Part shown: positions 2,891 to 25,410 of the stretch, one piece after another
Position numbering within the stretch: the stretch's first letter is position 1
How the letters are laid out: every line of letters begins with the position of its first letter
The notes under the pieces: model-generated
Told to the model about the DNA's origin: nothing
What the model saw: the letters and a program-made list of their open reading frames with translations, nothing else
The model's database searches: none
Program-made: the position numbers and the translations under genes
Assembly: GCA_030615605.1 (NCBI GenBank)
Contig: JAUWYY010000005.1
Span: 119,067 to 183,066 of the forward strand
Length of the DNA: 64,000 nucleotides
From: a bacterium
Lineage (GTDB): Bacteria > Armatimonadota > Zipacnadia > Zipacnadales > Zipacnadaceae
Reading direction: 5' to 3'

Positions 2891-2903
2891 AAGGAGACCT
2901 AAA

Positions 2904-4247
2904 ATGTTAGAAGAGATTGTAGCTGGTTGGGATAGTATCGAGCCGGTATTCTTGGCTAACGTGGCACTGCGCAAGCCGTTTATGCTGCTGGGCCGGCACG
3001 GCGTGTGCAAGACTACCGTAGCCAAGCAGCTCAGTCGCATCTACGGCAGCGACGGCTTCCGGTTCTACGACTGCACCAAGGATGACCTGATCTCCATTGC
3101 CGGGATTCCTATCCCCGAGCAGCTGGCCCAGGGCAAGCTGGAGTTCTCTCGGCACGACCGCACCATCTGGGAAGCCCGAGTCATCGTGGTAGACGAGCTG
3201 ACCCGCGCCAACAAAGAGAACCAAAACCTATGGCTGGAGATTCTGGAAGAAAAAACCTGCTTCGGCAAGGAGCTGCACTACGAATGCTTGATCGCCACCA
3301 TGAACCCGGAGAGCTACGCCTCCACCTTCAAGTTGGACCAGGCGCTGCTGGACCGGTTCTATGCGGTGGTGCCCGTCCCCGAACTGCAGCAGGGCACGCC
3401 GGCGCAGGTCTACGAGCGCATAATCAGGATGAACCTGTCCGCCGCTCAATCAGAGCCGGACATCGAGGCCATCCGCCAGAGGCTGGCCGAGATCAGAAGC
3501 AACTACAAGAAGCTCACTACCAGCGAGGTAGTCGAGACAGTAGCTGAATACGTGGGCAACTTCATGGAGATCCTGCTCTCGCAGACCGACTGCTATGTCT
3601 CGCCGCGTAAGGCGGTGCAGTTGTCTGAAGAGATTCTCGCCCTGGGGGCCGGCTGCGGCAGTGACCTGGACAAGGCTGCCCAGCTCGCCCTGACTTATAC
3701 CCTCAGTGTCCCGCTGCAGATCGAGCCCGGATTGCTGCTACAGATCCACGAGAACATCAAGCCACTGCTGCTGGGGGCGCTGTTGCCGGAGGACAAGCTA
3801 AGATTGGAGCTGGGCAAGCTGTGCGAGTCCGACGAACTGCTCTGCTATCTGGAGCAGAAGGCCGCGGAAATTGCCGAACTGCTGCCCTACGACGAAGTAG
3901 AGACGCTCCTGGCTAAGCTCCAGAGTCAGCTGTCGGAGCATAGTCCCGCCGTATGGCGGCTGCAGCAAGTGCTGGCGGCGATGGAGGGCCACGAAGAGCA
4001 GCAGCGCCAGGCCGAGGGTAAGGCCGTACTCTACCTGATTGCCCGGCTGGAAGCCATCGTGGCGACGATCGCCGACCGCTGCATATACAGCCGCAGAGAC
4101 GTGGAGATGAAGGATAAGGTCAAAGCCTTCCTGGCTTTGCTAGAAAGCCTCCCCCTGCCGCAAGAGACGCTGGCCTTCCTGTTCAGCGAGGCGGCGGAGG
4201 ATCACAGTCGTGTCATCAGCTTCATTGAGAAAGGAGAGTTCCAATGA
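2904..4247 (+). CDS. MoxR-like AAA+ ATPase (AAA_5-type)
   Basis: Walker A 'LLGRHGVCKTTVAK', Walker B 'VIVVDELTRAN', 'ATMNPES' (MoxR 'ATQNP'-like). AGGAG RBS upstream. Stop overlaps next start (ATGA). Confidence 0.75.
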   Translation: MLEEIVAGWDSIEPVFLANVALRKPFMLLGRHGVCKTTVAKQLSRIYGSDGFRFYDCTKDDLISIAGIPIPEQLAQGKLEFSRHDRTIWEARVIVVDELTRANKENQNLWLEILEEKTCFGKELHYECLIATMNPESYASTFKLDQALLDRFYAVVPVPELQQGTPAQVYERIIRMNLSAAQSEPDIEAIRQRLAEIRSNYKKLTTSEVVETVAEYVGNFMEILLSQTDCYVSPRKAVQLSEEILALGAGCGSDLDKAAQLALTYTLSVPLQIEPGLLLQIHENIKPLLLGALLPEDKLRLELGKLCESDELLCYLEQKAAEIAELLPYDEVETLLAKLQSQLSEHSPAVWRLQQVLAAMEGHEEQQRQAEGKAVLYLIARLEAIVATIADRCIYSRRDVEMKDKVKAFLALLESLPLPQETLAFLFSEAAEDHSRVISFIEKGEFQ

Positions 4248-5575
4248 CAAGCCTCAACCACAAACTAACCCAGGCCTGCGCCGGGTTGGGAATCAGCCTG
4301 CTGGAGGTTTCCCGCCTCGTGCAGGTAAGTGACCTGCCCAATGTTGCCTGCTGGGGGTACGATACGCGGACCAAGCAGGACTACATTTTCGTCAACCCGC
4401 GGGTACTCCGGTTCAAAGTAGAGCAGATCCGGCTGATCTTGACCCACGAGATGCTCCACTATGCCGGCTACCAGCAGATTTCCGGTGCCAAAGACCAGGA
4501 TCTGGCCAATATCGCGCTGGATATCGCCGTCAACAAGGTACTGGCACTTGCCCACGAACCGGAGATGAAATCGCTGTGCCGCAGGATCTATCCGCAGGAA
4601 ACCACAGACGGGATCGTAGCGCTGGCCCGGCCTGACCTCACTCCCAGCCAAATAGACGACCCTGACATCAGAACCCTCTGGCAGCAGATATGGGAAGAAG
4701 ACGAGATTCCTTCGCCTGCTTCCCTCTACTACAAGCTGCAGTTCAGCGCCGAGCCGGTGGATCTCATCGTTTGGCCGTTCTGGGGAACCGGCGACGGTGA
4801 CATAGTACTGCGAGCAGGCGCTGGCAACGGTGAAGGAGACCAGCTCGCAGCAGCAGCCAAGGGCACCATCGAAAAGTTGATTGCCGAGGCACCATTCGGC
4901 GGCGGCTTCAGCCAGCAAGTCTCGGAGTTGTTCTCCCCGATCCTGGTGGGAAAACAGGTATGCGACACCGCCCAGGTAACTGACTTGCTGCGCCGGATCA
5001 GTGTCCGGCAGCAGGTCGAGCAAGGCGCCGCGAGGATCATCCGTGCCCTCGACGGCAGCTCCGGCCCGCAGCTCTACCCCTACAACCTGAGCCGGTTGGG
5101 GCTTATCTACATGGCCTGCGGCGTAAGCGGGACAGTCCCGCTGTACTGGAACAAGCAGCCTGTTCAGAGCAAGCCGCGGCTGGCCATCTACCTGGATACT
5201 TCGCCCAGTATGGAGCCGTTTCAGGAGATGGAAGTGTTCCTGGTCGATGAGCTCAGGGACCATTTCCCGGCCCAGGCCTTCGCCTTTGCCGGCAGCGTAA
5301 AGGAGATATCGCTCCAGCAGTTCGCTGACGGCAACTACGAGGCCGGCCACTCCACCAGCTTCGACGCGGTCATTGAACATCTGCTCGGTTCCGACTACGA
5401 AGCCGGCGTCGTCTTCACCGACGGCTACTCCAGCGTGAGCTCGTGCAATCAGCAGCACATCCGCCAAAACGGCAAGCGGCTCTTCGTCGTCTATTTCACC
5501 TCCCATCACAGCCAGCCGACCTCCGACCTCGACCAGGTCGCCGAGGCAACCGCGGTTATCAGGCAGTCACGCTAA
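4244..5575 (+). CDS. VWA-like domain protein with N-terminal putative metallopeptidase domain (DUF2201-like), partner of MoxR ATPase
   Basis: HExxH 'THEMLHY' in the N-terminal domain. C-terminal region resembles the vWA-like fold that usually partners MoxR ATPases. Translationally coupled to the upstream gene by a 4-nt overlap. Confidence 0.6.
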   Translation: MTSLNHKLTQACAGLGISLLEVSRLVQVSDLPNVACWGYDTRTKQDYIFVNPRVLRFKVEQIRLILTHEMLHYAGYQQISGAKDQDLANIALDIAVNKVLALAHEPEMKSLCRRIYPQETTDGIVALARPDLTPSQIDDPDIRTLWQQIWEEDEIPSPASLYYKLQFSAEPVDLIVWPFWGTGDGDIVLRAGAGNGEGDQLAAAAKGTIEKLIAEAPFGGGFSQQVSELFSPILVGKQVCDTAQVTDLLRRISVRQQVEQGAARIIRALDGSSGPQLYPYNLSRLGLIYMACGVSGTVPLYWNKQPVQSKPRLAIYLDTSPSMEPFQEMEVFLVDELRDHFPAQAFAFAGSVKEISLQQFADGNYEAGHSTSFDAVIEHLLGSDYEAGVVFTDGYSSVSSCNQQHIRQNGKRLFVVYFTSHHSQPTSDLDQVAEATAVIRQSR

Positions 5576-13384: not shown

Positions 13385-13621
13385 ATGAAAGACCTGCTCA
13401 TAGTAATACCCGGGGCTCAGGACGAGAACGAGTCCCGGAGAGAGATCACAATCAAGCCGGGCACTACCGCCGCAGACATCCTGCAGGCGTGTGGGCTGGA
13501 GGGATACTTCCTGTCCAAAGACGGCGGGAGCACGTTCTTCACTTCGGACGAGGATGTCTACAAGCAGGTTGAGTCCGGAGCCAAGCTGTTTGCGACCTCG
13601 GACGTAAAAGTCGGCTGGTAG
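13385..13621 (+). CDS. ubiquitin-like (beta-grasp) small protein, BilA-like; C-terminus ...KVGW
   Basis: 78 aa. RBS 'AAAGGGGGTGATCTACC-ATG'. Alternating hydrophobic beta-strand pattern (LLIVIPG / REITIKPG / KLFAT) consistent with a beta-grasp. First gene of the Ubl-E2-JAB-E1 array. Confidence 0.6.
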   Translation: MKDLLIVIPGAQDENESRREITIKPGTTAADILQACGLEGYFLSKDGGSTFFTSDEDVYKQVESGAKLFATSDVKVGW

Positions 13622-13691
13622 TGCCGGGGACAGTCCGGCTAGGGGGAGGGGAGCTATTGAGCTGCCCCTCCCCCCTACAGGAGGTGATCGT

Positions 13692-14063
13692 ATGCGCAGA
13701 ATTGTCGAACCCAGCCGCACCCCACGGAACAGGATCGTAGTAGACAAGCACAACGTGCCCTATTGGCGCGAGCAAGGCTGGCGCAGTGTGGGTGGTGGCT
13801 ATGAAGGCACATATCGCTCGCCAAACGCGAGACTATTTGGGGAGATTGAGCGCGGCGGCGGCGGCGGCGGTCGGCTGCTGTTGTTCATCAGCGGCCCGCC
13901 TCGGTACGTCATCAACAGTTCCCACGCGCCGTGCTTCCAGCACATCGGCAACAATTGGTGGTCGATTCACTTTGCCAAGAGGCCGCGGAGTGTCTCCGAG
14001 GGGATTCTCGCAGTCGAGCAGACACTGGCCAGCGCCTATCGGGAAACAAGCAGGGAGGTTTGA
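13692..14063 (+). CDS. E2-like ubiquitin-conjugating enzyme homolog (UBC-like fold), BilB-like
   Basis: RBS 'CAGGAGGTGATCGT-ATG'. 'RLLLFISGPPRYVINSSHAPCFQHIGNNWWSI' matches the UBC core pattern (FP.dYP..PP.v.F...HPN...iC...W). Putative catalytic Cys in 'HAPC'. Poly-Gly insert. Confidence 0.5.
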   Translation: MRRIVEPSRTPRNRIVVDKHNVPYWREQGWRSVGGGYEGTYRSPNARLFGEIERGGGGGGRLLLFISGPPRYVINSSHAPCFQHIGNNWWSIHFAKRPRSVSEGILAVEQTLASAYRETSREV

Positions 14064-14066
14064 GAG

Positions 14067-14771
14067 ATGAGAACGCAGCGGTTGATTCTACCCAACAAAG
14101 AGATTATCACGTTTCGGCCTGGTCGTGGGGAACAGGCCGACCAAATCTGGCAGGAGTGGGCCAAGCCTCGTCGCGAGCGACGCCTGGAAACCGGTCAGCT
14201 GAGCTTGGACTTCTCGGGGGATCCGGGAGAGCCGTACCAGCGGGCCGAAAGCTCGGCACTTGAGCCACAGGAAGACATCTCTTACTACCTGGTCGGCTCG
14301 CGCTTCCTGACCTGGTGCAGCAAGCTGCTGCTGCGCAGCGCCGACGAAGGGCTGGTCTTCGTGAGCGGGCTGCAGCTAGAGCCGATACTGACACTGGATC
14401 AACTGGTCGGCTTCGGGTTGAAGCGGCAAAGCCTGACCGGAGCTGAGGCCGACCGCGGCTCGGCCCTACGGGCCCTGATCCAGCTCGACTGCTTTGGGCA
14501 CAAACTTCACGGTGTGTTTCACAGCCATCCGGGCGACGGCCCGATAGGCACGCTGCCTTCGGGCATCGACCACGAGACCCAGGCCCGCCTGGAGCGGGGC
14601 GGCTACCCCGTGATCGGGGGCATCTTCTCGCGCGACGGGTATGTGCGGTTCTTCTCTGAGAAAAACCAGTTTGAGGTGATTACCTATGGTACAGGCATCG
14701 AGTCAGCCGGTGAGAAGGTCTTCCGTGTCTGTAAAGACAGTAACCTACAAGACCAAGCCGCTCGTAGCTGA
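14067..14771 (+). CDS. JAB/MPN (JAMM) metallopeptidase, deubiquitinase-like, BilC-like
   Basis: JAMM zinc motif 'HGVFHSHPGDGPIGTLPSGIDHE' (HxH..S..D). Starts 4 nt after the E2-like stop. Confidence 0.8.
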   Translation: MRTQRLILPNKEIITFRPGRGEQADQIWQEWAKPRRERRLETGQLSLDFSGDPGEPYQRAESSALEPQEDISYYLVGSRFLTWCSKLLLRSADEGLVFVSGLQLEPILTLDQLVGFGLKRQSLTGAEADRGSALRALIQLDCFGHKLHGVFHSHPGDGPIGTLPSGIDHETQARLERGGYPVIGGIFSRDGYVRFFSEKNQFEVITYGTGIESAGEKVFRVCKDSNLQDQAARS

Positions 14772-15519
14772 GTGGGGCGAGGACAGATTCAGCGACCGCC
14801 AGGAGCGAGTGCCGGGGTTCGATCAGGACAGCCTGTCCGCTACCTCAGTGGCCTTGGTCGGGTGCGGGGGATTCGGCGGTGAGCTGGGCGAGGGGTTAGC
14901 GCGAAAGGGCGTCGGGAGCCTCTATTTGTTCGACGGGGATATTGTGGAGCTGTCCAACCTCAATCGCCAGCGCTTCTTCCGGGAGGACCTCTACCGCAAC
15001 AAGGCTGTTTGCGCAGCCCAGAATCTGGCTACAGAATGCTCTGGAGGCACTACGATCCAGGGCTTTGCCGCTACTTTCCAGGACATAGCCGAATCGCCCA
15101 GGATGCCGCCAGCCGACCTTATCGTGTGCGGCGTGGACAACAACGAAACGCGCGTCTACTGCGCCCGCTACGCCCTCAACAGGAGCCTACCGGTTGTGTT
15201 GCTGGGGACCGATGAAACCGCTGACTTTGGATACGTCTTTGTCCAGACGCCGGAGCAGGCTTGTTTCGGGTGCCTGTTTCCCCACGCTGTAGCAGAGCAG
15301 GCAGCGGATCCTGCTCCCTGCGCCAAGGTCGCGGCCGTGAAGGATGTTCTCAAGGCTCTCGCGGGTATTGCGCTCTATGCCGTTGACAGCTTGCTGATGC
15401 CCAGAAAACGCCACTGGAACTACCGACAAATCTCTCTGTCCGCAGAGCTGCCCGATGTGACCAGGACGATCCAGAAGCGGCCTGACTGCAAGCTGTGTGG
15501 TCGGTCAGAGGAGGGTTGA
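14686..15519 (+). CDS. E1-like ubiquitin-activating enzyme (ThiF/MoeB/HesA family), BilD-like
   Basis: 'VALVGCGGFGGELGEGLARKGVGSLYLFDGDIVELSNLNRQ' is the canonical ThiF/E1 nucleotide-binding signature. CxxC pairs 'CFGC' and 'CKLCG' (zinc site). The 5' end overlaps the JAB ORF and the true start is uncertain. Confidence 0.85.
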   Translation: MVQASSQPVRRSSVSVKTVTYKTKPLVAEWGEDRFSDRQERVPGFDQDSLSATSVALVGCGGFGGELGEGLARKGVGSLYLFDGDIVELSNLNRQRFFREDLYRNKAVCAAQNLATECSGGTTIQGFAATFQDIAESPRMPPADLIVCGVDNNETRVYCARYALNRSLPVVLLGTDETADFGYVFVQTPEQACFGCLFPHAVAEQAADPAPCAKVAAVKDVLKALAGIALYAVDSLLMPRKRHWNYRQISLSAELPDVTRTIQKRPDCKLCGRSEEG

Positions 15520-15523
15520 TGTC

Positions 15524-15907
15524 ATGCAATGGGATCAGATGCCAGGGCGACCGCCACCCCGGCCCGGATCGCGGCTGACGCGGCCAACCCAGGGGGCACC
15601 ACACGCCCAGACGACGCGACGCCCGGCGCGGCTACCTCGGAGACCAGAGGCATACAGGGAGCCAGGCCCCTTCGCACGGATACGGCTGCTGGACCGATGC
15701 ATCGGTATCTGTCTTTGCCTGGTGACGATAGCAACTCTCGTTGGCCTGGCGGGAGAGTTCTTCACGGATCTGTTCAGCGATCCGCTGACCTTTGTAGACG
15801 CCCTTTGGAAGATCCCCTTTGCGGTGATAGCCGGGGCTGTAGTCTTGTTTCTGGTAGCGGCTCTGGGCGATTGTGCGTGGTGCCTGTGGCGGACCAGACA
15901 TCAATAG
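15524..15907 (+). CDS. small two-TM membrane protein, copy A (paralog of 16059..16424)
   Basis: GGAGG RBS. Pro/Arg-rich N-terminus followed by two hydrophobic helices. Shares 'DPLTF..ALWKIP' and 'C.W.LWRTR' with copy B. Confidence 0.6.
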   Translation: MQWDQMPGRPPPRPGSRLTRPTQGAPHAQTTRRPARLPRRPEAYREPGPFARIRLLDRCIGICLCLVTIATLVGLAGEFFTDLFSDPLTFVDALWKIPFAVIAGAVVLFLVAALGDCAWCLWRTRHQ

Positions 15908-16058
15908 CAAGTACGGAGAGATACTGATGGAGATAGGCGACATAAGGCAAATCCGGCTGCACGGCGGCATAACTGCCCAGCAGAAGGGAATTGTGGCGGG
16001 AAAAGAAAGTCCGGCCCAGCTGGCAGCTGTGCTACCTATGTGAAAGGAGATAAGTATC

Positions 16059-16424
16059 ATGCGACCAGACGAAATAGATCATTTTCCGCTGCCCCAGCCT
16101 CGGGCGAGGCAGATGCCACCCCGGGAGGCGACGCCCCGTGTCGTCGGGATGAGCCAGGTACCGAGACCGCATTATCCGGCCCCGCGCACCAACTGGGCAC
16201 GAACCATCGTTCGTTGGTTAGCTATGACAGCGGCGCTGGCCGCCATGGCCACCATCGCTGCAATCGTGGCATTATTCTTTATGGCGCTGTTCGCCGATCC
16301 TCTAACCTTCCTGAAGGCGTTGTGGAAGATACCGCTGAGTGTGATAACGGTTAGTATAGCTCTGCTGGTGGAGGTACCGCTAGCGCAATGTGTGTGGCAC
16401 TTGTGGCGGACCAGATATCGGTAG
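16059..16424 (+). CDS. small two-TM membrane protein, copy B
   Basis: RBS 'AAGGAGATAAGTATC-ATG'. 'FADPLTFLKALWKIPLSVITVSIALLVEVPLAQCVWHLWRTRYR' parallels copy A. Confidence 0.65.
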   Translation: MRPDEIDHFPLPQPRARQMPPREATPRVVGMSQVPRPHYPAPRTNWARTIVRWLAMTAALAAMATIAAIVALFFMALFADPLTFLKALWKIPLSVITVSIALLVEVPLAQCVWHLWRTRYR

Positions 16425-16440
16425 AAAGCGAGGAGATAGA

Positions 16441-16873
16441 CATGGAGATAGGAGACCTGCGCGAAGTTCTGTTGAATCAAGGCATAACCGCCGAGGACCA
16501 GGTAATCGTCGAAGGCCAGACCCAACCGCTGGTCCAATCGGCTGAGCAAGCTGTCTTCACACCCGAAGGCTATGTCCGCAGGCGCGTCATGCGGGTAACC
16601 CAGTGCGCCGGTTGTCTGCGCCTGTTTCATCAAGCAGGCGCTGCCGGGTCGGTATGCGTTGACTGTGGCAGGACCCTGTGCCTTACGTGTAGCCAGACGG
16701 TCTGTGCGGATCCGTACTGCCGAAAGCCCGTCTGCCCGGACGACTATACTCTGTGGTGGGATGGGCCTTTGTGCCGCTGGCATAACTGGCTGCGGGTCAG
16801 AGGCTACATCATCCGGGCCCTGGTGATGGCCTCATGTCTCGGCGGATTGGTCTGCTTACTGTTCAACAGCTAG
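16441..16873 (+). CDS. Cys-rich (zinc-ribbon-like) protein with C-terminal TM anchor
   Basis: RBS 'GAGGAGATAGAC-ATG'. CxxC..CxxC..CxxC..C..C cluster (CAGC, CVDC, CLTC, C..PYC, CPDD) and a terminal hydrophobic helix. The N-terminus 'MEIGDLREV' is duplicated as a 38-aa ORF at 15927. Confidence 0.55.
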
Positions 16874-16907
16874 TGGCGCCATAGTGACTTACAAAGGAGA
16901 GATCGCA

Positions 16908-19091
16908 ATGAACAGACACGAACAGGACTACACTCTGGAAGAGCGCTTGGCCAGGTCCGGCCTCAAAGGCCATCCCGGGGCCACCGCGGCCGCGGCCGCA
17001 GCCGCCCTTTCCGGGGATGAGAATCTGCTCAATCGGCTGGTGCAGTTGCTTGATGTCCACGCGGTCATGAACATGGCCGAAGACCACGCGTTCGTGCTGA
17101 ATCAGCCCGAGCCTGAAGACCTCCCCGCTGAGGGCATACCGTGGGTCTGGACTCTGCGCAACGACGGGTCGGCCTTCCCCTGCCCGTTGCCCACCGAGCA
17201 AGACTGGAATGCCTGCCTGCTGGGCACCACCGGTGTGGGGAAAAGCTACGGCGTCAAACACCTGGCCACCCAGCTGCACTTGGCCGGGGAAAGTGTGTGG
17301 ATCTTCGACGTGGAGAACGAGCACGCTGACGTGGCCGTGCAATTTCCTGCAGAAGAGTTCTTAGTGATCGACTACCAGCAGCTCAAGCGCAACATCTTCC
17401 AGCCAGTGCCCGGGGAAAGCCCCAAGGAGGCTATCCACCGCTGCCGCTCGGTGTGGCGGGAGTCGTGCTTCTTGCGCGACGGCAGCGAGAACATGCTGGG
17501 GGACATTCTGTGGCGGGAATACGAGAATCGTGGCGTGTTCCGCGGCAGTCGCAACTACCTCACGCTCGCCGACGTCTGCACCGACCTGACTCGCAAGAAA
17601 TACCGCACCCGCTCGCGAGAGTTCGCGTACTGGGAGACCTTGATGAACCGGACAACCTCGCTGGAGCAGCTTTTGGGTGAGCCTTATGATTGTGTGGAAG
17701 GCTTTGATCTGAGTGAGCTGGTCGGCAAGTCGATGGTCCTGCGCCTGCGGGGCATGGCTGACCAGCTCCGGCTGTTTTTCCTCAACGACCTTATCACCGC
17801 TGCTCTGACCTGCCAGGCACTGCGTCCGGGCAACACCCTGACCATAGTCATTGAAGAAGCCCACCTGACCTACTCTGCGTGGGAGCGGCGCAGTGACCTG
17901 GCCGAGCCGTGCATTCTGCAGGCTGCTCGCCGCGCCCGCAAGCGAGACACACGGCTGGTTTGGGTGGATCAGGTGCCGGCAGCGATGCCGCCTCAAGTAC
18001 TGGCCACCACCCGGGCCAAGACCATCTTTCGCCTCGAAGACGGCGATTCGAAGCGCACGGTGGCCCGCAGTTGCTCGCTGACGCGGGAGCAGGAGGAGTA
18101 CTTGAGCGAGATTCCCGAGAGATGTGCCGTGCAATTCCTGGGCGGTCTGTATCCCAAGGCGTTTCTGGTCAGGTTTCCCGAGCTCAATTTCATCCAGCCT
18201 ACGGAGGCGGAATTGGCCCGCAGGATGCGCCTCGTTCTGGCAGGCCTTCGGTACATGCCCAGACCGCAGCAGCCCAGCCCACCAACTCAGAAAGTGGTGG
18301 CGAAAACCACCCCAAAGGTGGAAGTCAAGCGCCAGCCTGCTCAGAAGGAGCCCACAGCATCCTCACTCACACGGGATGCCATTGACTACCTGATTGAGAT
18401 TGCTAAACATCCTTTTGAGACGGTAACGGAACGAGATGCCCGGCTGGGTCACAGTGGCTACATGGGTGCACGGCTGAGGGATGAACTGGCAGAACGCGGA
18501 CTGGTCGAGCCCTGCCGTGTCAATACCGGCAGGAGGGGTGGAACCATCGTGCTCTATCAGCCGACAGCCACCGGGTGGCGACACCTGAAGTCGGTGCTGC
18601 GCGTGCAAGTAGACCGCCCTCGCGGCAAAGGCGGCCCGGAACATCAGTACTGGCAGCACCAGGCAGCCGCTTGGTGCCGCAGTCGTTTTCCTGACAGCGA
18701 GATAGTGATAGAAGATCATCGCCTGGGCAAGGCAGTGGACGTGGCAGTGTACCTGCCTGACAGCCGCAAGATCGCCATGGAGATTGCCTTGGGTACGGCC
18801 GAGAAGCAACTGTTTGAAGTCGGCAACATCGAGGCTAACCTGGGTGTGGGCTATGACCAGGTGATCGTGGCGGCACGCACCGAGAAGGACCTCGACCGGA
18901 TCAGACGGACAGTGGTCCAGGAGCTGGGCGAGGATGCTGCTAGCAGAATCGAGTGGCGGCGGTTGCGTGAATTCCTGGAACAATCCGATAACGGCGCCGC
19001 AGAAGTCTTAAGTGATCAGCAGTCCCTGGATCTTTCGACACCTACCACACCAAAGGTGATAGTGAAAACGAAAAATGAGTCTGGCCTGTAG
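16908..19091 (+). CDS. HerA/FtsK-superfamily P-loop ATPase fused to winged-helix and PD-(D/E)xK-like nuclease domain
   Basis: RBS 'AAAGGAGAGATCGCA-ATG'. Walker A 'LLGTTGVGKSYG', Walker B 'LTIVIEEAHL'. C-terminus 'AVDVAVYLPDSRKIAMEIALGTAEK..GNIEANLGVGYDQVIVA' has a nuclease-like fold. Located 70 nt upstream of an integrase. Confidence 0.75.
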   Translation: MNRHEQDYTLEERLARSGLKGHPGATAAAAAAALSGDENLLNRLVQLLDVHAVMNMAEDHAFVLNQPEPEDLPAEGIPWVWTLRNDGSAFPCPLPTEQDWNACLLGTTGVGKSYGVKHLATQLHLAGESVWIFDVENEHADVAVQFPAEEFLVIDYQQLKRNIFQPVPGESPKEAIHRCRSVWRESCFLRDGSENMLGDILWREYENRGVFRGSRNYLTLADVCTDLTRKKYRTRSREFAYWETLMNRTTSLEQLLGEPYDCVEGFDLSELVGKSMVLRLRGMADQLRLFFLNDLITAALTCQALRPGNTLTIVIEEAHLTYSAWERRSDLAEPCILQAARRARKRDTRLVWVDQVPAAMPPQVLATTRAKTIFRLEDGDSKRTVARSCSLTREQEEYLSEIPERCAVQFLGGLYPKAFLVRFPELNFIQPTEAELARRMRLVLAGLRYMPRPQQPSPPTQKVVAKTTPKVEVKRQPAQKEPTASSLTRDAIDYLIEIAKHPFETVTERDARLGHSGYMGARLRDELAERGLVEPCRVNTGRRGGTIVLYQPTATGWRHLKSVLRVQVDRPRGKGGPEHQYWQHQAAAWCRSRFPDSEIVIEDHRLGKAVDVAVYLPDSRKIAMEIALGTAEKQLFEVGNIEANLGVGYDQVIVAARTEKDLDRIRRTVVQELGEDAASRIEWRRLREFLEQSDNGAAEVLSDQQSLDLSTPTTPKVIVKTKNESGL

Positions 19092-19161: not shown

Positions 19162-20235
19162 ATGAGAAGCACTGTAGCTGAACATCAAAGCCAGGCAACG
19201 ACAGTAAGCCCCGGTTGCCAGTTGGGAGCGGCCGTTGTCGCTGACAACGAACAGGGAATCCACAATTTCCAGTACTTGGTGGATTCTTTTCTGACCTATC
19301 TTGAGCAGTACCGCCAAGCTTCTCCGCTTACCCTACAAGCCTATGGCCGGGATCTGAAGCGGCTGCATCGCTTCCTGGTGTCTCATGGCCTAGCGACAAA
19401 TGTCCGCAACATTACCAGCCGCGAGCTGCAGGCCTTTGCTGTCTCGATGAGTGGACTGGCTCCAGCCACGATCACACGGGCACTGAATGCTACCAGTTCG
19501 TTATTCAGTTATTTGATAAGAAGCGGTCTGGCAGAGTCCAACCCGGTCGACAGCGTGATCAAGCCCAAGCAGAGGCCTAGTCTGCCCCAGGGGCCAACCG
19601 TTCAGCAATGCCATCGGTTGGTCCAGGCCACTAGCGATATTCGCGACCGAGTTATGATCATGCTGCTGTTGACTGCGGGCCTGCGCCGCTCTGAGCTGCT
19701 GAATTCGCGAACCAGCGATTTGACAGCCGATCTGAGCCGCATTCGGATTATGGGCAAAGGCGGCAAGGAACGGGTAATACCTCTGCCGGAACAGACCCGG
19801 CGAATACTTGAGCAATACCTGGACGAGAGAGAATCAACCTCAGAGCTTCTCTTCCCTAACACGCGCGCCAAGCGCATGGGCAACTCGACGTTCTATCGAA
19901 TCTTCAAGCGCATTGTGAAGAGAGCCGGGCTTGACCAAGCAGGCATCACCGCCCATAGTCTGCGTCACGCCTATGCCACAATGCTGCTGCACTCGGCAGT
20001 GGATGTGAAGACAGTCCAAGAGCTGCTGGGCCATGCTGACCTGAGCACTACTTCACGCTACCTGCACTCGGATGACGCCACCAAGCAGGCTGCCGCTGAG
20101 GCGCTGCCTGACTTGCTCAGCGCGAATGAGGGGCAGGACACACTGAGCGAGAGCCATAGCGAGGAGGCCACGGCCGTTCACCCTAAGAAATTCCCCGCCA
20201 AGAACCGAATCAAATCAGTCTTCAAACGACTATAG
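19162..20235 (+). CDS. tyrosine recombinase, XerC/XerD-like integrase
   Basis: Core-binding domain plus catalytic 'LRRSE', 'HSLRHAYAT', 'LLGHADLSTTSRYLH'. Confidence 0.85.
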   Translation: MRSTVAEHQSQATTVSPGCQLGAAVVADNEQGIHNFQYLVDSFLTYLEQYRQASPLTLQAYGRDLKRLHRFLVSHGLATNVRNITSRELQAFAVSMSGLAPATITRALNATSSLFSYLIRSGLAESNPVDSVIKPKQRPSLPQGPTVQQCHRLVQATSDIRDRVMIMLLLTAGLRRSELLNSRTSDLTADLSRIRIMGKGGKERVIPLPEQTRRILEQYLDERESTSELLFPNTRAKRMGNSTFYRIFKRIVKRAGLDQAGITAHSLRHAYATMLLHSAVDVKTVQELLGHADLSTTSRYLHSDDATKQAAAEALPDLLSANEGQDTLSESHSEEATAVHPKKFPAKNRIKSVFKRL

Positions 20236-21395: not shown

Positions 21396-22445
21396 GTGGG
21401 TGGCACTTTCGACAGCCTGAGCCGGGATGCCAGACCTCCGGCCGCAGACTCGACGGCACAAATCCCAACGCCAGAACGTGTCTGGGCAGAGCTTGTCCAG
21501 CTCTGCGCAGTAGGTATGGGTTTCGACAGCCAGATGAGCCTGCCGCATCGACAATTCCAGGAGGACTTGCCTGCTGTCTTCGACCTGAGCCAGAGACACG
21601 GGGTGACGGGACTAGCCTATGAGGGATGCGAGAGAATGGGATATGCCAAAGCTATGGATCCGCACCTTATCAGACAATCAGCAATAAGCTTGCTGCTTAC
21701 AGGAGCAAGGCAGAAGCAGCACGGTCTAGCAATCGCAGAGAGCACAGATGCGCTGGAGAGCGCCGGCATCCGTAGCGTGGTGCTCAAAGGGCTGGCCACA
21801 GCCCATATGTGCTACTCTGACCCGGCGTTACGGCCCTCTGGCGACATTGACCTTCTTGTGGATGTTGACAACAAAGAACGCGCGATAGCGGCGTTGCTCA
21901 ATATTGGCTACGAGGTCCGGGCGGATCCCGTGCCCACCAGTCATATTCTGGCATTTTATTACGCGATAAGCTTAATTAGGGACGGCATTACCATTGACCT
22001 TCACTGGGACCTGCTGAACTGGGGCAGGGAGATCCCAGAGAGCCCGACGATAGAGATTGCAGAGAGGATGCTCAACCGTCGGGCCCTCAGGAAGCTGGGT
22101 GAGGCCGAAGCTTGCGTTCTGACGCCGGGCGACGCGCTGTTGAGCTCCTGCCTTCACCTGTTCGCTCACCGCGGAGAGCGGCGTCTTCTGTGGCTGTGTG
22201 ACACAGCTGCGTTGGCCAGGCATCTCAGGCCTAACCAGTGGTCCGGGATCCGAGGAGAATTAGCGCGGTCCGGCCGTATGGAAGTGTTAGGCACTGCAGT
22301 TCGCACGACACTGGCGCAGGCATGCCGTGATTTTGGCATACCCACTGGACTGAAGTTCTGCAAGGGACTGCCGTGCAGTCGTGCACTACAGGACCTGTTC
22401 GTGTGGCGGCCAGACCTGCACCCGAGGCACAACTTTGATCGCTAG
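21396..22445 (+). CDS. nucleotidyltransferase-family protein (NTP_transf_5-like) of HPr-rel-A-type RiPP cluster
   Basis: 'GIRSVVLKGLATAHMCYSDPALRPSGDIDLLVDVDNKERAIAALLNIGYEV' is the minimal nucleotidyltransferase motif seen next to PqqD/HprK-related kinase genes. Confidence 0.6.
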   Translation: MGGTFDSLSRDARPPAADSTAQIPTPERVWAELVQLCAVGMGFDSQMSLPHRQFQEDLPAVFDLSQRHGVTGLAYEGCERMGYAKAMDPHLIRQSAISLLLTGARQKQHGLAIAESTDALESAGIRSVVLKGLATAHMCYSDPALRPSGDIDLLVDVDNKERAIAALLNIGYEVRADPVPTSHILAFYYAISLIRDGITIDLHWDLLNWGREIPESPTIEIAERMLNRRALRKLGEAEACVLTPGDALLSSCLHLFAHRGERRLLWLCDTAALARHLRPNQWSGIRGELARSGRMEVLGTAVRTTLAQACRDFGIPTGLKFCKGLPCSRALQDLFVWRPDLHPRHNFDR

Positions 22446-22624
22446 AATGAACGGGTGTTGCCAGCAGGCCGTTTCGCATTCACGTCTCTCCCACATCTCA
22501 TCGCCCTGCCGTCGCTGGGTTGAACGCGGCTGCCCGAACACGCGACAGGCGCGGCACTCGGAGACCATTTCCCGACCCAGCACTTCCCTCACTTGCTCTA
22601 CCGCTACCCGGCGCCGGGCCGGGC

Positions 22625-22907
22625 TCAGTAGTTTCCCGACGCCGCCTCCTTCAAAATGGAATTGTCCAGAGCCTGCTCGGCTACCAGCTTCTTGAGACGA
22701 GCGTTCTCCTTTTCCAGCTCCTTAAGCCGCTTCGCTTCATCTACGCGCATACCCCCATACTCCGCACGCCACCAGTAGTAAGTATGATCCGTTACCCCCA
22801 TCTTCTTGCATACTTGGTCCACCGTAGCTCCCTTAGCTAACTCCACTTCTGCCTGCCGTAACTTGTTGATGATCTGCTCCGGGCTGTGTCTCTTCGGGCT
22901 CATCATA
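22625..22907 (-). mobile_element. IS3-family transposase OrfA remnant (no OrfB)
   Basis: 'SPKRHSPEQIINKLRQAEVELAKGATVDQVCKKMGVTDHTYYWWRAEYGGMRVDEAKRLKELEKENARLKKLVAEQALD' is the IS3/IS911 OrfA HTH-leucine zipper. No DDE OrfB follows. Confidence 0.7.
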
Positions 22908-23121
22908 CCGCCCTCCCTTGCATCCAGATTCCCCAAGTAGTAACATTCAACTGGGCTCGTTCTCAGGGGCAAGGACAGCGACTCGTATGACTTGACAAAA
23001 AGCGCAGTACCTGGCATAATGGGCACATCGTGCGATTATCTCGCGCTGGCGGATTCACTAAAGCGAGACGGATTTAGTAATAGGGGGTACGTGGCAATCT
23101 GCCAGCAAGGGGTGGTGTTAG

Positions 23122-23432
23122 TGTCAAGAAACGATTCGGACCTGGCGCAGTGCGTGGTCAAATCTATCGATACAGTCTCAGAAAGAGTCGGAGAGCAGGT
23201 ATTCGTGTTATCAACACGAGATAATAGATTATTTACCTTCAATGGGGTTGGTGCCGAAATCTGGGAGCTCTTGGATGGGACAAGAACCACAGACGACATA
23301 GTCCAAGCCGTGTGTTCGAGGTTCCATGTCCGTCGTGCAGACGCCCGAAGGGACGTGTCACTGTTTCTCCAACATCTGGCGCAACGGGGTCTGACAGATG
23401 TGTTTGCCAACCTCGCATGCCGCGAAGATTAA
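23122..23432 (+). CDS. PqqD-family RiPP recognition element (RRE) protein
   Basis: 'FVLSTRDNRLFTFNGVGAEIWELLDGTRTTDDIVQAVCSRF...DVSLFLQHLAQRGL' matches the PqqD pattern. Start chosen at the GTG with a GGGGTGG RBS. The ORF is open from 22992. Confidence 0.65.
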
Positions 23433-23530
23433 GACGTAACAAAGACCTCAGCACAAGATTTTGCTGCCTTTCGTGGCGCGAGGGTGCGATTGAGCAGCGC
23501 TAACGGCTCAGGAGGGAGCCCAAGGAGCAT

Positions 23531-24340
23531 ATGCAGGCGGGAAGAGGTGTACGGCAAGTTATTCGGTACACTGCGAAGAAGATACTCAGGATAGGCCATT
23601 GCCTTTCATGCTCTGTCAAACGCCATGGCCTCAACGCCAATGCGGACACGGGCCGAGCCTTGGACCTTGGCTCGGTGAAACTGTCACTTGTCAAGCGGGC
23701 GATTCAGGCACAAGGCGGCTTGATGCTGGAATTTGGGGGGTACAGCATGATGCCCAGCATCCGACCTGGGAATACGCTTAAGGTAGTGAAGGCTAGTCCT
23801 GATACCCTCACAACAGGAGATGTGATAGCATTCTTGGCCGGGAGACGAATTGTGGTGCATCGGATTGTGGGGTTGAAACATGGCTGGCGGAAGTGGTACT
23901 TCGTCACCAAAGGGGATAATTGTCAAGTCGAAGATTCACTCGTTGCACCACACCAAGTGCTTGGAATAGTGTGTAAAATACAGACGGGGGCACTAGGACC
24001 TGAACTATCAAGCTCTGTCACTACCAGTACTATCGGGGGATATGAAATGGACCACCAAGCAAGGCCCGTGGCCAAGCCAGGTGTCATATGTCGTAAAGAG
24101 GATGCCGACGGTGTCCTGTTCGACCACGGTACAGGATCCGCAAAGATCCTGAACAGCGTAGGACTCATCGTGTGGGGTTGCTGTGATGGCAGTTGGACGC
24201 TGTCGTCGATCATTGACATGGTTCACAAGCGGTTCCTCGACGTACCGCGCGAGACCATCTCTGCCGATGTCGACAAGTTTGTAATGGAATTGGAAGAGCT
24301 CGAGTTTCTGAGCATTGCAGAGAAGGAGCTCAGCAAGTGA
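23531..24340 (+). CDS. S24/S26 (signal-peptidase-I-like) serine peptidase fused to a C-terminal PqqD-like domain
   Basis: RBS 'AAGGAGCAT-ATG'. 'GYSMMPSI' (Ser nucleophile box) and 'TKGDN' (Lys). C-terminus 'VLFDHGTGSAKILNSVGLIVWGCCDGSWTLSSIIDMV...VDKFVMELEELEFL' is PqqD-like. Confidence 0.65.
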   Translation: MQAGRGVRQVIRYTAKKILRIGHCLSCSVKRHGLNANADTGRALDLGSVKLSLVKRAIQAQGGLMLEFGGYSMMPSIRPGNTLKVVKASPDTLTTGDVIAFLAGRRIVVHRIVGLKHGWRKWYFVTKGDNCQVEDSLVAPHQVLGIVCKIQTGALGPELSSSVTTSTIGGYEMDHQARPVAKPGVICRKEDADGVLFDHGTGSAKILNSVGLIVWGCCDGSWTLSSIIDMVHKRFLDVPRETISADVDKFVMELEELEFLSIAEKELSK

Positions 24341-25383
24341 AGGACCATCTGCCATCCGCGCCTTTTGCTGCTTCTGTGGCGATTACAGCCCGTTGCAATC
24401 TCCGGTGTAAACACTGCTTTGCTACAGGAGGCGCTCCTCTCGATGACGAGCTTTCTACACCTGAGCTCATCGAATTAGTGCATGGTTTAGCCCGTGCCAA
24501 GATCTTCTGGGTAACCGTGACAGGGGGAGAGCCGCTTTGCCATGATGACTTGCTGGACATCCTCAGCAGCATTGAGGAACACAACATGCGATGCAGTCTG
24601 AACACAAACTGCACCTTGGTGTCTAAGAGTGTGGCTCAGAAGCTAGCTGCTGTTCCTGTACGTGGAGGGATATCAGTGAGCCTAGACGGGTCGAAGGCGG
24701 TGGTGGTCGATGCTATCCGGGGCGCTGGAGTCTTCAAAAGGACGGTTATTGGGATCGAGCAGCTAATTGAGTGTGGACTCACGGTTCGAGGCGTCACTGT
24801 GGTCAACAAGTACAATCAGATGGATCTGCTCAACATTGCCCGACTTGCAAGGGAGCTAGGACTTGTCGAAATAGACTTCAACGACATGGTGGGCGCTGGC
24901 TGCGCCAGCGTTAACGCACTGCAGCTTCAACTGACGCCTTCACAAAGGAAGTACGCGGTTGACATAGTTGACCAACTCTCGGAAGAGTATCCTGGATTCA
25001 TAGGCGGTGCCTACCTTCAATGGGGAAGGCAGCTGAAAGGTTTCTCGAAGAGTCCTGAAAGGTTGTTGGAAGGCAAACAAAACACTCTGGATGGGTGCGG
25101 AGCTGCGTTTAGTGCGTGCACCATTAGACCTGACGGGTGGGTCGTTCCTTGTGACGCACTGTGGGATGTGAAGGCCGGCAATGTTAGACAAGAAGACATT
25201 GTGTACATATGGCGAAGTTCCCGGGTTTTCAACGAATTTCGAAGGCTCAAAACTGTCAATTTGGGCCAAGTGCCAGGCTGCAGTGACTGCCAGTACAATA
25301 CGCTGTGCCACGGAGGATGTCGTGCCTCCGCCTACCATGCAACTGGTAACTTGGCGGGCCGTGACCCATTCTGTTGGTATTGA
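24337..25383 (+). CDS. radical SAM enzyme with C-terminal SPASM domain (RiPP maturase 1)
   Basis: 'CNLRCKHC' (CxxxCxxC). C-terminal Cys cluster 'GCGAAFSAC...PCD...CSDCQYNTLCHGGCRASAY'. 4-nt overlap with the upstream gene. Confidence 0.85.
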   Translation: MKDHLPSAPFAASVAITARCNLRCKHCFATGGAPLDDELSTPELIELVHGLARAKIFWVTVTGGEPLCHDDLLDILSSIEEHNMRCSLNTNCTLVSKSVAQKLAAVPVRGGISVSLDGSKAVVVDAIRGAGVFKRTVIGIEQLIECGLTVRGVTVVNKYNQMDLLNIARLARELGLVEIDFNDMVGAGCASVNALQLQLTPSQRKYAVDIVDQLSEEYPGFIGGAYLQWGRQLKGFSKSPERLLEGKQNTLDGCGAAFSACTIRPDGWVVPCDALWDVKAGNVRQEDIVYIWRSSRVFNEFRRLKTVNLGQVPGCSDCQYNTLCHGGCRASAYHATGNLAGRDPFCWY

Positions 25384-25410
25384 CGTCAGGCGCGAGAGAA
25401 GCGTCAAATC

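What the first reader, a model, noticed from the sequence alone, without database searches (positions are those of the whole stretch)
13385..15519. Compact Ubl-E2-JAB-E1 operon (Bil-like ubiquitin-like conjugation system) on an integrase-bounded island
Four consecutive same-strand genes sit in the order seen in bacterial ISG15-like (Bil) antiphage operons. A 78-aa beta-grasp protein comes first, a 123-aa protein with a UBC-like core (putative catalytic Cys in 'HAPC') second, a JAMM peptidase ('HSHPGDGPIGTLPSGIDHE') third, and a ThiF/E1 enzyme ('GCGGFGGELG...DGDIVELSNLNRQ', CxxC pairs) last. The Ubl ends ...KVGW rather than GG. This suggests either JAB trimming of a one-residue tail or a non-canonical conjugation chemistry. 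The island context (integrases at 7292 and 19162, a nuclease-ATPase at 16908) fits a mobile defence cargo. The combination with downstream tandem membrane genes is not a described architecture that I know of.
Basis: partly seen in the sequence, partly recalled or inferred. Interest (0 to 1): 0.85.

Follow-up and report, generated by a model that had tools for sequence, protein, structure and literature searches.

The report
Minimal ubiquitin-like conjugation operon on mobile element
Four adjacent genes encode a complete but very small bacterial ubiquitin-like tagging system (tag, trimming protease, activating enzyme, carrier enzyme) that belongs to a widespread family I could not find described and that travels on integrative mobile elements.

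Summary
Window 13385-15519 carries four same-strand genes, each with a GGTGAT-type ribosome-binding site.

- **JAMM peptidase (234 aa):** intact E…HxH…S..D motif.
- **E1 (277 aa):** single-domain ThiF-type enzyme with an invariant crossover-loop Cys212.

The module recurs in about 40 public loci across several phyla. In the family the Ubl ends at an invariant Gly, followed by 0-7 variable residues or by the whole E2 domain. This strongly supports JAB trimming of the window's terminal Trp.

The system has the gene order and the Cys…His E2 signature of Bil. Its E1 lacks Bil's IAD-AAD-CYS architecture and there is no sequence-level match. It also resembles Type I Bub, but it keeps cysteines.

It sits on tRNA-targeting integrative elements (HerA/coupling-protein ATPase, Replic_Relax, recombinase). 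Related backbones lack it, so it is an accessory module. A defence role is plausible but untested.

Verdict: new variant of a known kind.

The parts
13385..13621 (+). Ubl precursor (78 aa): ubiquitin-fold beta-grasp. Invariant Gly77 is followed by a one-residue tail (Trp78) that is predicted to be removed.
13623..13674 (+). Two GC-rich hairpins in the Ubl-E2 spacer. The second is a 14-bp stem (GGGGGAGGGGAGCU/AGCUGCCCCUCCCCC) with no U-tract. They may act as a stabiliser or attenuator that sets the Ubl:enzyme ratio.
   Evidence: Sequence. RNA fold -43.3 kcal/mol, z = -2.45 against shuffles. Function is inferred only.
13692..14063 (+). Mini-E2 (123 aa; conserved domain about residues 20-120): UBC-like fold lacking the C-terminal helix pair. 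Putative catalytic Cys81 with His93 twelve residues downstream.
14067..14771 (+). JAB/JAMM metallopeptidase (234 aa): variable N-terminal region plus catalytic core (Glu94, His152-x-His154, Ser165, Asp168).
   Evidence: More than 324 homologues. The motif residues are invariant in 32 sequences. The profile hits BRCC36 at 3e-5, RPN11 at 3e-3 and BilC at 0.097. Pfam Prok-JAB is only sub-threshold.
14686..15519 (+). E1 (277 aa): single ThiF/MoeB-type adenylation domain with a GxGxxG loop, NLNRQ arginine finger, Asp151, two CxxC pairs and an invariant crossover-loop Cys212. Its start overlaps the JAB gene by 86 nt.
   Evidence: Pfam ThiF 1.4e-29. PDB matches to UBA1 AAD, MoeB, ThiF, UBA5 and MccB. 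C212 is conserved in 36 of 36 sequences. Invariant residues listed. The JAB/E1 overlap is conserved in 43 of 45 loci.
15497..16873 (+). Window-specific tandem duplication of a two-gene unit. It comprises membrane protein 15497 (likely start 15524)-15907, a 38-aa MEIGD peptide 15927-16043, membrane protein 16059-16424, and a 143-aa MEIGD + multi-Cys zinc-finger + TM protein 16442-16873.
   Evidence: ORFs and sequence. TM1 and TM2 are 53% identical over 49 aa. The 38-aa ORF is 52% identical to the N-terminus of the zinc-finger protein. Sub-threshold FYVE/B-box/C1 hits. Among the loci, homologues occur only in L001, the same sequence.
16884..19091 (+). HerA/FtsK/coupling-protein-like P-loop ATPase (735 aa from the GTG at 16884, or 727 aa from the ATG at 16908). 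It is the recurrent backbone gene of the carrier element.
   Evidence: Pfam DUF87 4.8e-6 and PADLOC mad8 1e-13. Homologues lie next to the Ubl module in 31 of 46 loci. A family representative hits TraG-D_C, TrwB_AAD_bind and T4SS-DNA_transf.
19162..20235 (+). Tyrosine recombinase (357 aa) at the likely right end of the element.
   Evidence: Pfam Phage_integrase 2e-43 plus SAM-like N-terminal domain. It occupies the same position, after the ATPase, as in related loci. Five of those loci have a tRNA gene next to the recombinase end.

Best explanation
The four genes encode a complete, unusually small ubiquitin-like protein conjugation cascade.

1. The 78-aa Ubl is made as a precursor. The JAMM peptidase cuts after the invariant Gly77 and removes Trp78. 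In relatives it removes longer tails or releases the Ubl from a Ubl-E2 fusion.
2. A ThiF/MoeB-type E1, presumably homodimeric, adenylates Gly77. It probably then holds the Ubl as a thioester on the invariant crossover-loop Cys212, as in UBA5/ThiF-type enzymes.
3. The Ubl passes to Cys81 of the mini-E2, assisted by His93, and from there to lysines of target proteins. No E3 is evident.
4. The JAMM peptidase can presumably also reverse the modification.

The cassette is an accessory module of a family of tRNA-targeting integrative elements that carry a HerA/coupling-protein-like DNA translocase. Its biological role is most probably conflict-related, meaning defence against phages or rival elements as shown for Bil.

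Shown here: gene order, folds, conserved catalytic residues, the precursor pattern and the genomic association. Inferred: every chemical step, the targets and the defence role.
For: - **Catalytic residues:** JAMM E94/H152/H154/S165/D168 invariant. E1 nucleotide-binding and arginine-finger residues and Cys212 invariant. E2 Cys81 invariant and His93 at least 90% conserved.
- **Bil parallel:** this is the same Cys…(12-13 aa)…His signature reported for BilB Cys138/His151.
- **Precursor logic:** Gly77 invariant. It is followed by 0-7 variable residues in 30 loci and fused to the E2 domain in 9 of 39 loci and in about 31 of 149 family representatives. Experimental precedents are BilC trimming BilA and BubCD cutting BubAB.
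- **Coupling:** the JAB and E1 ORFs overlap in 43 of 45 loci.
- **Recurrence:** the four-gene order is conserved in about 40 loci of Acidobacteriota, Omnitrophota, Zixibacteria, Brocadia, Bipolaricaulota and a Methanosarcinaceae MAG.
- **Carrier element:** 31 of 46 loci have the ATPase, 23 an integrase and 20 Replic_Relax. tRNA genes abut the recombinase end in 5 loci.
Against: - **No biochemistry:** nothing has been measured, and the targets are unknown.
- **Defence role unsupported directly:** no PADLOC model matches the Ubl, E2 or JAB. Neighbours are transfer, replication and methylase genes rather than known defence systems.
- **Dispensable for the element:** related HerA-Replic_Relax backbones lack the module (8 of 9 backbone-anchored loci).
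Confidence: 0.7

Rival explanations
1. The Ubl cascade serves the mobile element's own life cycle rather than defence. For example, it may tag host or element proteins to control excision, replication or HerA-driven DNA transfer, or help establishment or counter-defence in a new host.
For: - When anchored on the JAB, the module lies almost always next to the same backbone: ATPase in 31 of 46 loci, integrase in 23, Replic_Relax in 20.
- In the window it lies on the same strand as the membrane genes, ATPase and integrase, with very short gaps.
- Pairwise identities of E1 and JAB correlate with those of Replic_Relax (Spearman 0.72 and 0.89).
- It is rare in viral contigs (1 locus in IMG/VR), and the mini-E2 has no match in plasmid records.
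- No known defence genes flank it.
Against: - Backbones of the same family exist without it (L052, L053, L055, L060, L062, L077, L094, L123).
- Its position relative to the backbone varies: upstream of the ATPase, or downstream of the integrase. That is typical of cargo.
- The identity correlations are confounded by host phylogeny.
- Every experimentally studied bacterial E1/E2/Ubl operon so far is linked to antiphage immunity.
Confidence: 0.2
2. It is a bona fide member of the Bil (BilABCD) antiphage family, in effect a further Bil type, which conjugates the Ubl to phage structural proteins.
For: - Same gene order, Ubl-E2-JAB-E1.
- Ubl with a conserved Gly plus a short removable tail, as in Type II BilA.
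- E2 lacking the C-terminal helices and carrying a Cys…His pair with the same spacing as BilB.
- No E3 gene.
Against: - BilD is defined by IAD-AAD-CYS. This E1 is 277 aa, and the family median is about 266 aa. It has one adenylation domain, and its candidate Cys sits in a short crossover loop.
- The E2 profile does not hit BilB in PDB even at E <= 10.
- The JAB profile hits BilC only at E 0.097, worse than RPN11 and BRCC36.
Confidence: 0.15
3. It is a sulfur-carrier system of the ThiS/MoaD/CysO type. The JAB exposes the Gly, the E1 makes a Ubl thiocarboxylate, and sulfur is delivered to a metabolite.
For: - The E1 is as similar to MoeB and ThiF as to ubiquitin E1s.
- It has the ThiF-like crossover-loop Cys and Zn-binding CxxC pairs.
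- JAB + ThiS/MoaD + E1 operons of this kind are known (Iyer 2006, rows 4b-4e).
Against: - A Cys-bearing UBC-like protein always accompanies the module, or is fused to the Ubl.
- The E1 has no rhodanese domain.
- No cysteine synthase, sulfurtransferase or cofactor/siderophore genes occur in the neighbourhoods.
- The E1 falls far below the trusted cut-offs of the ThiF/MoeB equivalog models.
- The Ubl's best structural matches are ubiquitin-type modifiers.
Confidence: 0.05

Closest known systems
Type I/II Bil (BilABCD) antiphage ubiquitination operons (Chambers et al., bioRxiv 10.1101/2023.09.26.559546; Hör et al., bioRxiv 10.1101/2023.09.04.556158)
   Same: - Four separate genes in the order Ubl-E2-JAB-E1.
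- Ubl with a conserved C-terminal Gly followed by a few residues that the JAB removes.
- Compact E2 without the C-terminal helix pair, with a Cys and a His 12-13 residues downstream.
- No E3 and no UFD on the E1.
   Different: - The E1 is a single ThiF-like adenylation domain of about 270 aa. Its candidate Cys is in a short crossover loop, instead of the IAD-AAD tandem with a mobile CYS domain.
- No detectable sequence similarity to BilB, and only marginal similarity to BilC.
- The Ubl is fused to the E2 in about a fifth of members.
- The genomic home is an integrative element of uncultivated phyla rather than defence islands of Rhizobiaceae and relatives.
Type I Bub (BubAB/BubCD/BubE) operons (Ye et al., bioRxiv 10.1101/2024.11.21.623953)
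   Same: - ThiF/UBA5-like single-domain E1 whose crossover loop carries the transfer residue.
- JAB physically coupled to the E1: fused in Bub, a conserved gene overlap here.
- Ubl-E2 fusions cut by the JAB at a conserved Gly.
   Different: - Bub works through oxyesters (E1 Tyr, E2 Ser). This family keeps invariant Cys in both E1 and E2.
- There is no DUF6527/BubE serine protease.
- The Ubl always has a single beta-grasp domain.
- The window E1 matches BubCD only at E about 1e-4.
Non-canonical eukaryotic UBA5-UFC1-UFM1 and bacterial ThiF-ThiS/MoeB-MoaD pairs
   Same: Small E1 with one adenylation domain per chain and Zn-binding CxxC pairs. Its reactive Cys sits in the crossover loop; ThiF Cys184 and UBA5 Cys250 are quoted from established knowledge. 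Sequence similarity is comparable (E 1e-13 to 1e-20).
   Different: ThiF and MoeB have no E2 partner and make thiocarboxylates. UBA5 uses a C-terminal E2-binding peptide and a canonical-size E2. Here the partner is a UBC-like domain of about 100 aa, and a dedicated JAMM peptidase belongs to the operon.
Type II CBASS Cap2/Cap3
   Different: Cap2 is an E2-E1 fusion that conjugates a CD-NTase, not a Ubl. This module has no CD-NTase or effector.

Membership tests
Bil (BilABCD, Type I/II) | Operon with separate Ubl, E2, JAB and E1 genes in the order A-B-C-D | tested here: met
   Window ORFs at 13385, 13692, 14067 and 14686. The same order is seen in about 40 loci. Definition taken.
Bil (BilABCD, Type I/II) | [quoted passage not shown] | tested here: not met
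   The E1 is 277 aa with one ThiF domain (residues 46-215) and a short crossover loop carrying Cys212. The family median is about 266 aa.
Bil (BilABCD, Type I/II) | E2 (BilB) with a catalytic Cys and an adjacent conserved His about 13 residues downstream, and no C-terminal helix pair | tested here: met
   C81 is invariant, H93 at least 90% conserved, and the spacing is 12 residues. The model has a beta-hairpin that would bring residues 81 and 93 together, and a single C-terminal helix. BilB Cys138/His151 are described. Their spatial adjacency in this protein is inferred, not measured.
Bil (BilABCD, Type I/II) | Identifiable sequence homology of all four proteins to BilA-D | tested here: not met
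Bil (BilABCD, Type I/II) | [quoted passage not shown] | not testable with these tools
   This needs phage challenge and conjugate mass spectrometry.
Type I Bub | Ubl-E2 fusion (BubAB) cut by the JAB at a conserved Gly | tested here: inconclusive
   The window genes are separate. Fusions occur in 9 of 39 related loci and about 31 of 149 family representatives, always with the conserved Gly at the junction. Cleavage itself was not tested.
Type I Bub | JAB-E1 fusion protein lacking a catalytic Cys, and an E2 with a catalytic Ser (oxyester chemistry) | tested here: not met
   JAB and E1 are separate, overlapping ORFs. E1 Cys212 and E2 Cys81 are invariant.
Type I Bub | Associated DUF6527 serine protease (BubE) | tested here: not met
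   No DUF6527 hit among the window neighbours or the recurrent neighbour families.
Type II CBASS (Cap2/Cap3) | E2-E1 fusion with a CD-NTase substrate and an effector | tested here: not met
   Only the E1 domain matches PADLOC Cap2 models. E2 and E1 are separate genes, and no CD-NTase is present.
ThiS/MoaD sulfur-carrier systems (ThiF, MoeB, CysO/Mec+ type) | E1 passes the equivalog thresholds and is linked to sulfurtransferase or biosynthetic genes; no E2 | tested here: not met
   NCBIfam ThiF and MoeB scores are 52-73 bits against cut-offs of 152-449. No rhodanese or biosynthetic neighbours. An E2-like partner is always present.
PRTRC (ParB-related, ThiF-related cassette) of plasmids and ICEs | PRTRC-type ThiF protein (TIGR03736) | tested here: not met
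   32.5 bits against a cut-off of 144.75.
Eukaryote-like prokaryotic Ub operons with a RING E3 (Caldiarchaeum type; Burroughs et al. 2011, recalled from memory) | Canonical-size E2 with an HPN-type active site, an E1 with a C-terminal UFD, and a small RING-finger E3 | tested here: inconclusive
   The E1 is too short for a UFD, and the E2 has no HPN motif and no UQ_con hit. A multi-Cys zinc-finger membrane protein lies downstream (16442-16873) with only sub-threshold FYVE/B-box hits. Equivalent Zn-ribbon proteins in relatives sit with the transfer genes. The 2011 paper could not be read.

The most novel reading that the evidence does not exclude
This family is a Cys-based 'missing link' ubiquitination cascade. 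A ThiF/UBA5-like homodimeric E1 hands a Ubl from a crossover-loop cysteine to a UBC domain of about 100 aa. The cascade belongs functionally to a family of HerA-driven integrative elements. The element would use protein ubiquitin-like tagging for its own transfer, establishment or counter-defence, rather than the host using it for immunity.
Probability: 0.2. Interest if true: 0.85.

Novelty: new variant of a known kind. Interest (0 to 1): 0.62.

Why it matters
Bacterial ubiquitination-like pathways (CBASS Cap2, Bil I/II, Bub I/II) were characterised biochemically only from about 2023. They are central to the debate on where eukaryotic ubiquitination came from.

This family would add a further operon type and possibly the smallest complete one: Ubl of 77 aa, E2 of about 100 aa, E1 of about 270 aa. 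It combines the E1 architecture of Bub and UBA5 with the thioester residues and E2 signature of Bil. That makes it a natural test case for how single-domain ThiF-like enzymes became E2-charging E1s.

It is abundant in uncultivated soil and sediment phyla: 510 representative clusters for the E2 domain. It is tied to one kind of integrative element. That raises a testable question: whether mobile elements use Ubl tagging as a weapon or for their own propagation.

The small, soluble-looking parts also make it attractive as a minimal protein-tagging tool.

Tried and rejected
- **Word-indexed homologue searches** with the E2 and the Ubl returned only the query itself. The exhaustive phmmer search was needed.
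- **Exact look-up** of the E2 on contigs failed. A genome scan with the single JAB sequence found nothing; the alignment-based scan worked.
I used fused family members instead.
- **Independent checks of the UBC call all failed.** Foldseek against PDB found nothing significant. hhalign against UBE2D2 found nothing. The profile against PDB sequences returned only spurious papillomavirus 'E2' hits.
- **Library searches** found little. PADLOC, PHROGs and NCBIfam gave no family for the Ubl, E2 or JAB. The E2 has no match in PLSDB plasmids. There is one locus in IMG/VR.
- **Element boundaries** were not found. A 30-nt imperfect repeat at 5252/22557 does not extend. No tRNA gene lies in the window. 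No att-like repeat of the tRNA ends was found in five related loci.
- **'Core module of the element' was considered and downgraded.** A backbone-anchored metagenome scan showed related backbones without the module.
- **JAB-E1 frameshift fusion:** the constant frame offset is expected from purifying selection on two overlapping ORFs, so it is no evidence.
- **Literature:** no description of this family was found. Burroughs et al. 2011 could not be opened, so prior mention there cannot be excluded.
Full report
**1. What is in the window**

Four + strand ORFs occupy 13385-15519 exactly as described. Each follows a purine-rich ribosome-binding site of one type: GGGGGTGAT, GGAGGTGAT, GGGAGG and GAGGTGAT.

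The spacers are 70 nt (Ubl-E2), 3 nt (E2-JAB) and an 86-nt overlap (JAB-E1). The 70-nt spacer holds two GC-rich hairpins without a U-tract (-43.3 kcal/mol, z = -2.45). The consensus scan found no convincing internal terminator or promoter.

The same strand continues without large gaps through two membrane-protein genes, a 38-aa ORF, a zinc-finger membrane protein, a HerA-like ATPase (16884/16908-19091) and a tyrosine recombinase (19162-20235).

**2. Library searches identify only half of the system**

- **Pfam:** ThiF for the E1 (1.4e-29), a sub-threshold Prok-JAB hit for the peptidase (E 0.037), and nothing for the 78-aa and 123-aa proteins.
- **PADLOC:** only the E1 domain of CBASS Cap2 models and a mad8/HerA model for the ATPase.
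- **NCBIfam:** the E1 falls far below every ThiF, MoeB, SAMP-E1 and PRTRC cut-off.
- **PHROGs:** nothing useful.

**3. Each protein belongs to a sizeable family**

- **JAB:** more than 324 cluster representatives. An alignment of 32 shows invariant Glu94, His152, His154, Ser165 and Asp168, which is a complete JAMM site. The profile matches BRCC36 (3e-5) and RPN11 (3e-3) better than BilC (0.097).
- **123-aa protein:** the word-indexed search found only itself. The exhaustive phmmer search found 510 representatives at E <= 1e-3. In 77 sequences W30, G39, G50 and C81 are invariant. P69, P70, H78, F82, H93, I105 and E109 are at least 90% conserved.
- **E1:** in 36 family members the crossover-loop Cys212 ('PAPC') is 100% conserved, and the CxxC pairs largely so. 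The GxGxxG, FDxD, NLNRQ and VDN motifs are invariant. The profile is about equally close to UBA1 active adenylation domains, MoeB, ThiF, UBA6, UBA5 and MccB (E 1e-17 to 3e-21). Cap2 scores 5e-13, and BilD is not among the best 60. With the single sequence, BubCD appears only at E about 1e-4.

**4. Folds**

- **123-aa protein:** the model is confident (pLDDT 92.5). It shows a four-stranded meander, the PP…H78..C81 segment, a beta-hairpin (82-86/89-92) and one long C-terminal helix.
- **Reading:** I take this as a diverged minimal UBC fold lacking the C-terminal helix pair, as reported for BilB, BubB and the Cap2 E2. The call is supported but not secure.
- **Cys…His signature:** Cys81 followed 12 residues later by His93 matches the Cys138…His151 pair conserved in Type I and II BilB. 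The hairpin in the model would place the two residues side by side, which is an inference.

**5. The precursor pattern**

Across 39 loci with a Ubl, the domain always ends in …V/A-Gly, and Gly77 is invariant. What follows the Gly varies:

| After the Gly | Loci |
|---|---|
| Nothing | L002, L042 |
| One residue | window (W), L007 (K), L008 (V), L018 (L) |
| Two to seven residues | most others, e.g. KE, KK, RCA, ITVCA, VMALCA |
| The whole E2 domain | 9 loci |

About 31 of the 149 best E2-family representatives are such Ubl-E2 fusions. This is the classical signature of a Ubl that a peptidase must trim. Experimental precedents are BilC cutting one residue off BilA, and BubCD cutting BubAB.

The terminal Trp of the window protein therefore needs no unusual chemistry. 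The JAB and E1 ORFs overlap by at least 32 nt in 43 of 45 loci. This suggests translational coupling of two proteins that are physically fused in Type I Bub.

**6. Genomic home**

An alignment-based scan of GTDB representative genomes gave 46 loci. They come from Acidobacteriota (Bryobacterales, Terriglobia), Omnitrophota, Zixibacteria, Ca. Brocadia, Bipolaricaulota and one Methanosarcinaceae MAG.

Clustering the neighbours and scanning representatives against Pfam shows a recurrent backbone.

| Neighbour | Pfam evidence | Loci |
|---|---|---|
| P-loop ATPase | DUF87/HerA, TraG-D_C, TrwB_AAD_bind, T4SS-DNA_transf | 31 |
| Tyrosine integrase | Phage_integrase | 23 |
| Replication-relaxation protein | Replic_Relax | 20 |
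| Double-zinc-ribbon membrane protein | DZR | 16 |

Also recurrent are an HTH_17 excisionase-like protein, large serine recombinases, DUF2958 and orphan DNA methyltransferases (D12, MT-A70+ParB_N, N6_N4). tRNA genes abut the recombinase end in five loci. These are integrative elements, and possibly conjugative ones.

Only one IMG/VR contig carries the module, and the E2 has no match in plasmid records.

In the window I could not define att sites. The left integrase (7292) may belong to a different element. The first 5.6 kb hold another HerA-like fragment and a MoxR-VWA pair.

**7. Core or cargo?**

Anchored on the JAB, the association with the backbone is strong. E1 and JAB identities co-vary with Replic_Relax (Spearman 0.72 and 0.89).

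I then anchored a metagenome scan on the ATPase instead. Of 80 loci only L051 had JAB and E1. Eight others had the ATPase-Replic_Relax-zinc-ribbon backbone without the module. At the corresponding positions they carried other genes: nucleases, an ImmA/IrrE-HTH regulator, RuvC and a Dam methylase.

The position of the module relative to the backbone also varies. The module is therefore an accessory cassette that is specific to this element family, not an indispensable core.

**8. Comparison with known systems**

- **Bil.** The definitions come from Chambers et al., Gong et al. and Ye et al.. The gene order, removable Ubl tail, E2 signature and absence of an E3 match Bil. The defining IAD-AAD-CYS E1 is absent and there is no sequence-level match, so I do not file it as Bil.
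- **Type I Bub.** The single-domain E1 with a crossover-loop transfer residue, the JAB-E1 coupling and the frequent Ubl-E2 fusions match Type I Bub. Both catalytic cysteines are retained and BubE is absent, so it is not Bub either.
- **Earlier catalogues.** It matches none of rows 4-6e of the 2006 Iyer-Burroughs-Aravind table. I could not read the 2011 follow-up. From memory, that paper concerns systems with RING E3s, canonical E2s and UFD-bearing E1s, which differ from this one.

**9. Mechanism and role**

I commit to a Ubl conjugation cascade: JAB trimming at Gly77, adenylation, an E1 Cys212 thioester, an E2 Cys81 thioester, then target lysines, with the JAB also reversing the modification. 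Confidence is about 0.7.

The role is inferred. All characterised bacterial relatives act in antiphage immunity, and the cassette behaves as element cargo. I therefore favour a conflict function. A role in the element's own propagation is the main rival (about 0.2). A sulfur-carrier role is unlikely.

**10. Verdict**

This is a new variant of a known kind of system: a compact, Cys-based, Bil/Bub-intermediate ubiquitination-like operon family carried by integrative elements of mostly uncultivated phyla. Interest 0.62.

Noticed in passing
window 15497-16873: A two-gene unit is tandemly duplicated. The membrane proteins at 15497-15907 and 16059-16424 are 53% identical over their C-terminal 49 aa. 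A 38-aa ORF (15927-16043, MEIGDIRQ…) matches the N-terminus of the 143-aa zinc-finger + TM protein (16442-16873, MEIGDLRE…) and looks like a truncated copy. Among the loci examined, homologues occur only in the identical Logan contig L001.
   Followed up: partly
window 13623-13674: Two GC-rich hairpins sit between the Ubl stop and the E2 RBS. The second has a 14-bp stem and no U-tract. They could raise Ubl expression relative to the enzymes. In most related loci the E2 ORF abuts or overlaps the Ubl gene, so the feature may be specific to this window.
   Followed up: partly
window 14686-14771 and loci L002-L049: The E1 ORF overlaps the 3' end of the JAB ORF by at least 32 nt, always at the same frame offset, in 43 of 45 loci. 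In L007 and L021 (Omnitrophota) a DNA methyltransferase gene is inserted between JAB and E1.
   Followed up: partly
loci L006, L010-L017, L022, L027-L029, L033-L035, L039 (Ubl C-termini): In the acidobacterial members, the propeptide after the conserved Gly usually ends in Cys-Ala (ITVCA, VVVCA, IALCA, VMALCA, ELERCA, RCA). This is a conserved motif in a segment that is expected to be discarded.
   Followed up: no
window 1-5575: The window opens with a second, truncated HerA-like ATPase gene (1-1344). It matches the element ATPase family at E 1e-23. An unknown 362-aa gene follows, then a MoxR-type AAA ATPase (2904-4247) and a VWA/DUF2201 protein (4244-5575). This may be a second mobile or conflict locus next to the integrase at 7292.
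   Followed up: partly
window 21396-26502: Downstream of the element lie an NTP_transf_5 nucleotidyltransferase (21396-22445), a PqqD-domain protein (23531-24340) and two tandem paralogous genes (24337-25383 and 25411-26502). The two paralogues cluster with a radical SAM/SPASM gene that also lies beside the related element in L003. The set looks like a RiPP-type maturation cluster.
   Followed up: no
window 16884-19091; L019, L024, L038, L044: The C-terminal part of the ATPase carries a winged-helix-like region and a D…E motif reminiscent of PD-(D/E)xK nucleases (…VDVAVY…MEIAL…). In several related loci this C-terminal part is a separate ORF of about 120-136 aa.
   Followed up: no
L037 (JBQVMC010000033.1): One complete copy of the element is on a contig binned as a Methanosarcinaceae archaeon. 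It runs Ubl-E2-JAB-E1-ATPase-Replic_Relax-Zn-ribbon-Xis-Int next to tRNA-Leu. Its ATPase is 64-65% identical to those of the Zixibacteria copies (L041, L045). This means either recent cross-domain transfer or a binning error.
   Followed up: no
window 5252-5281 and 22557-22586: An imperfect 30-nt direct repeat (83% identity) brackets both integrases and the Ubl element. The similarity does not extend beyond about 28 nt, so it may be chance.
   Followed up: yes
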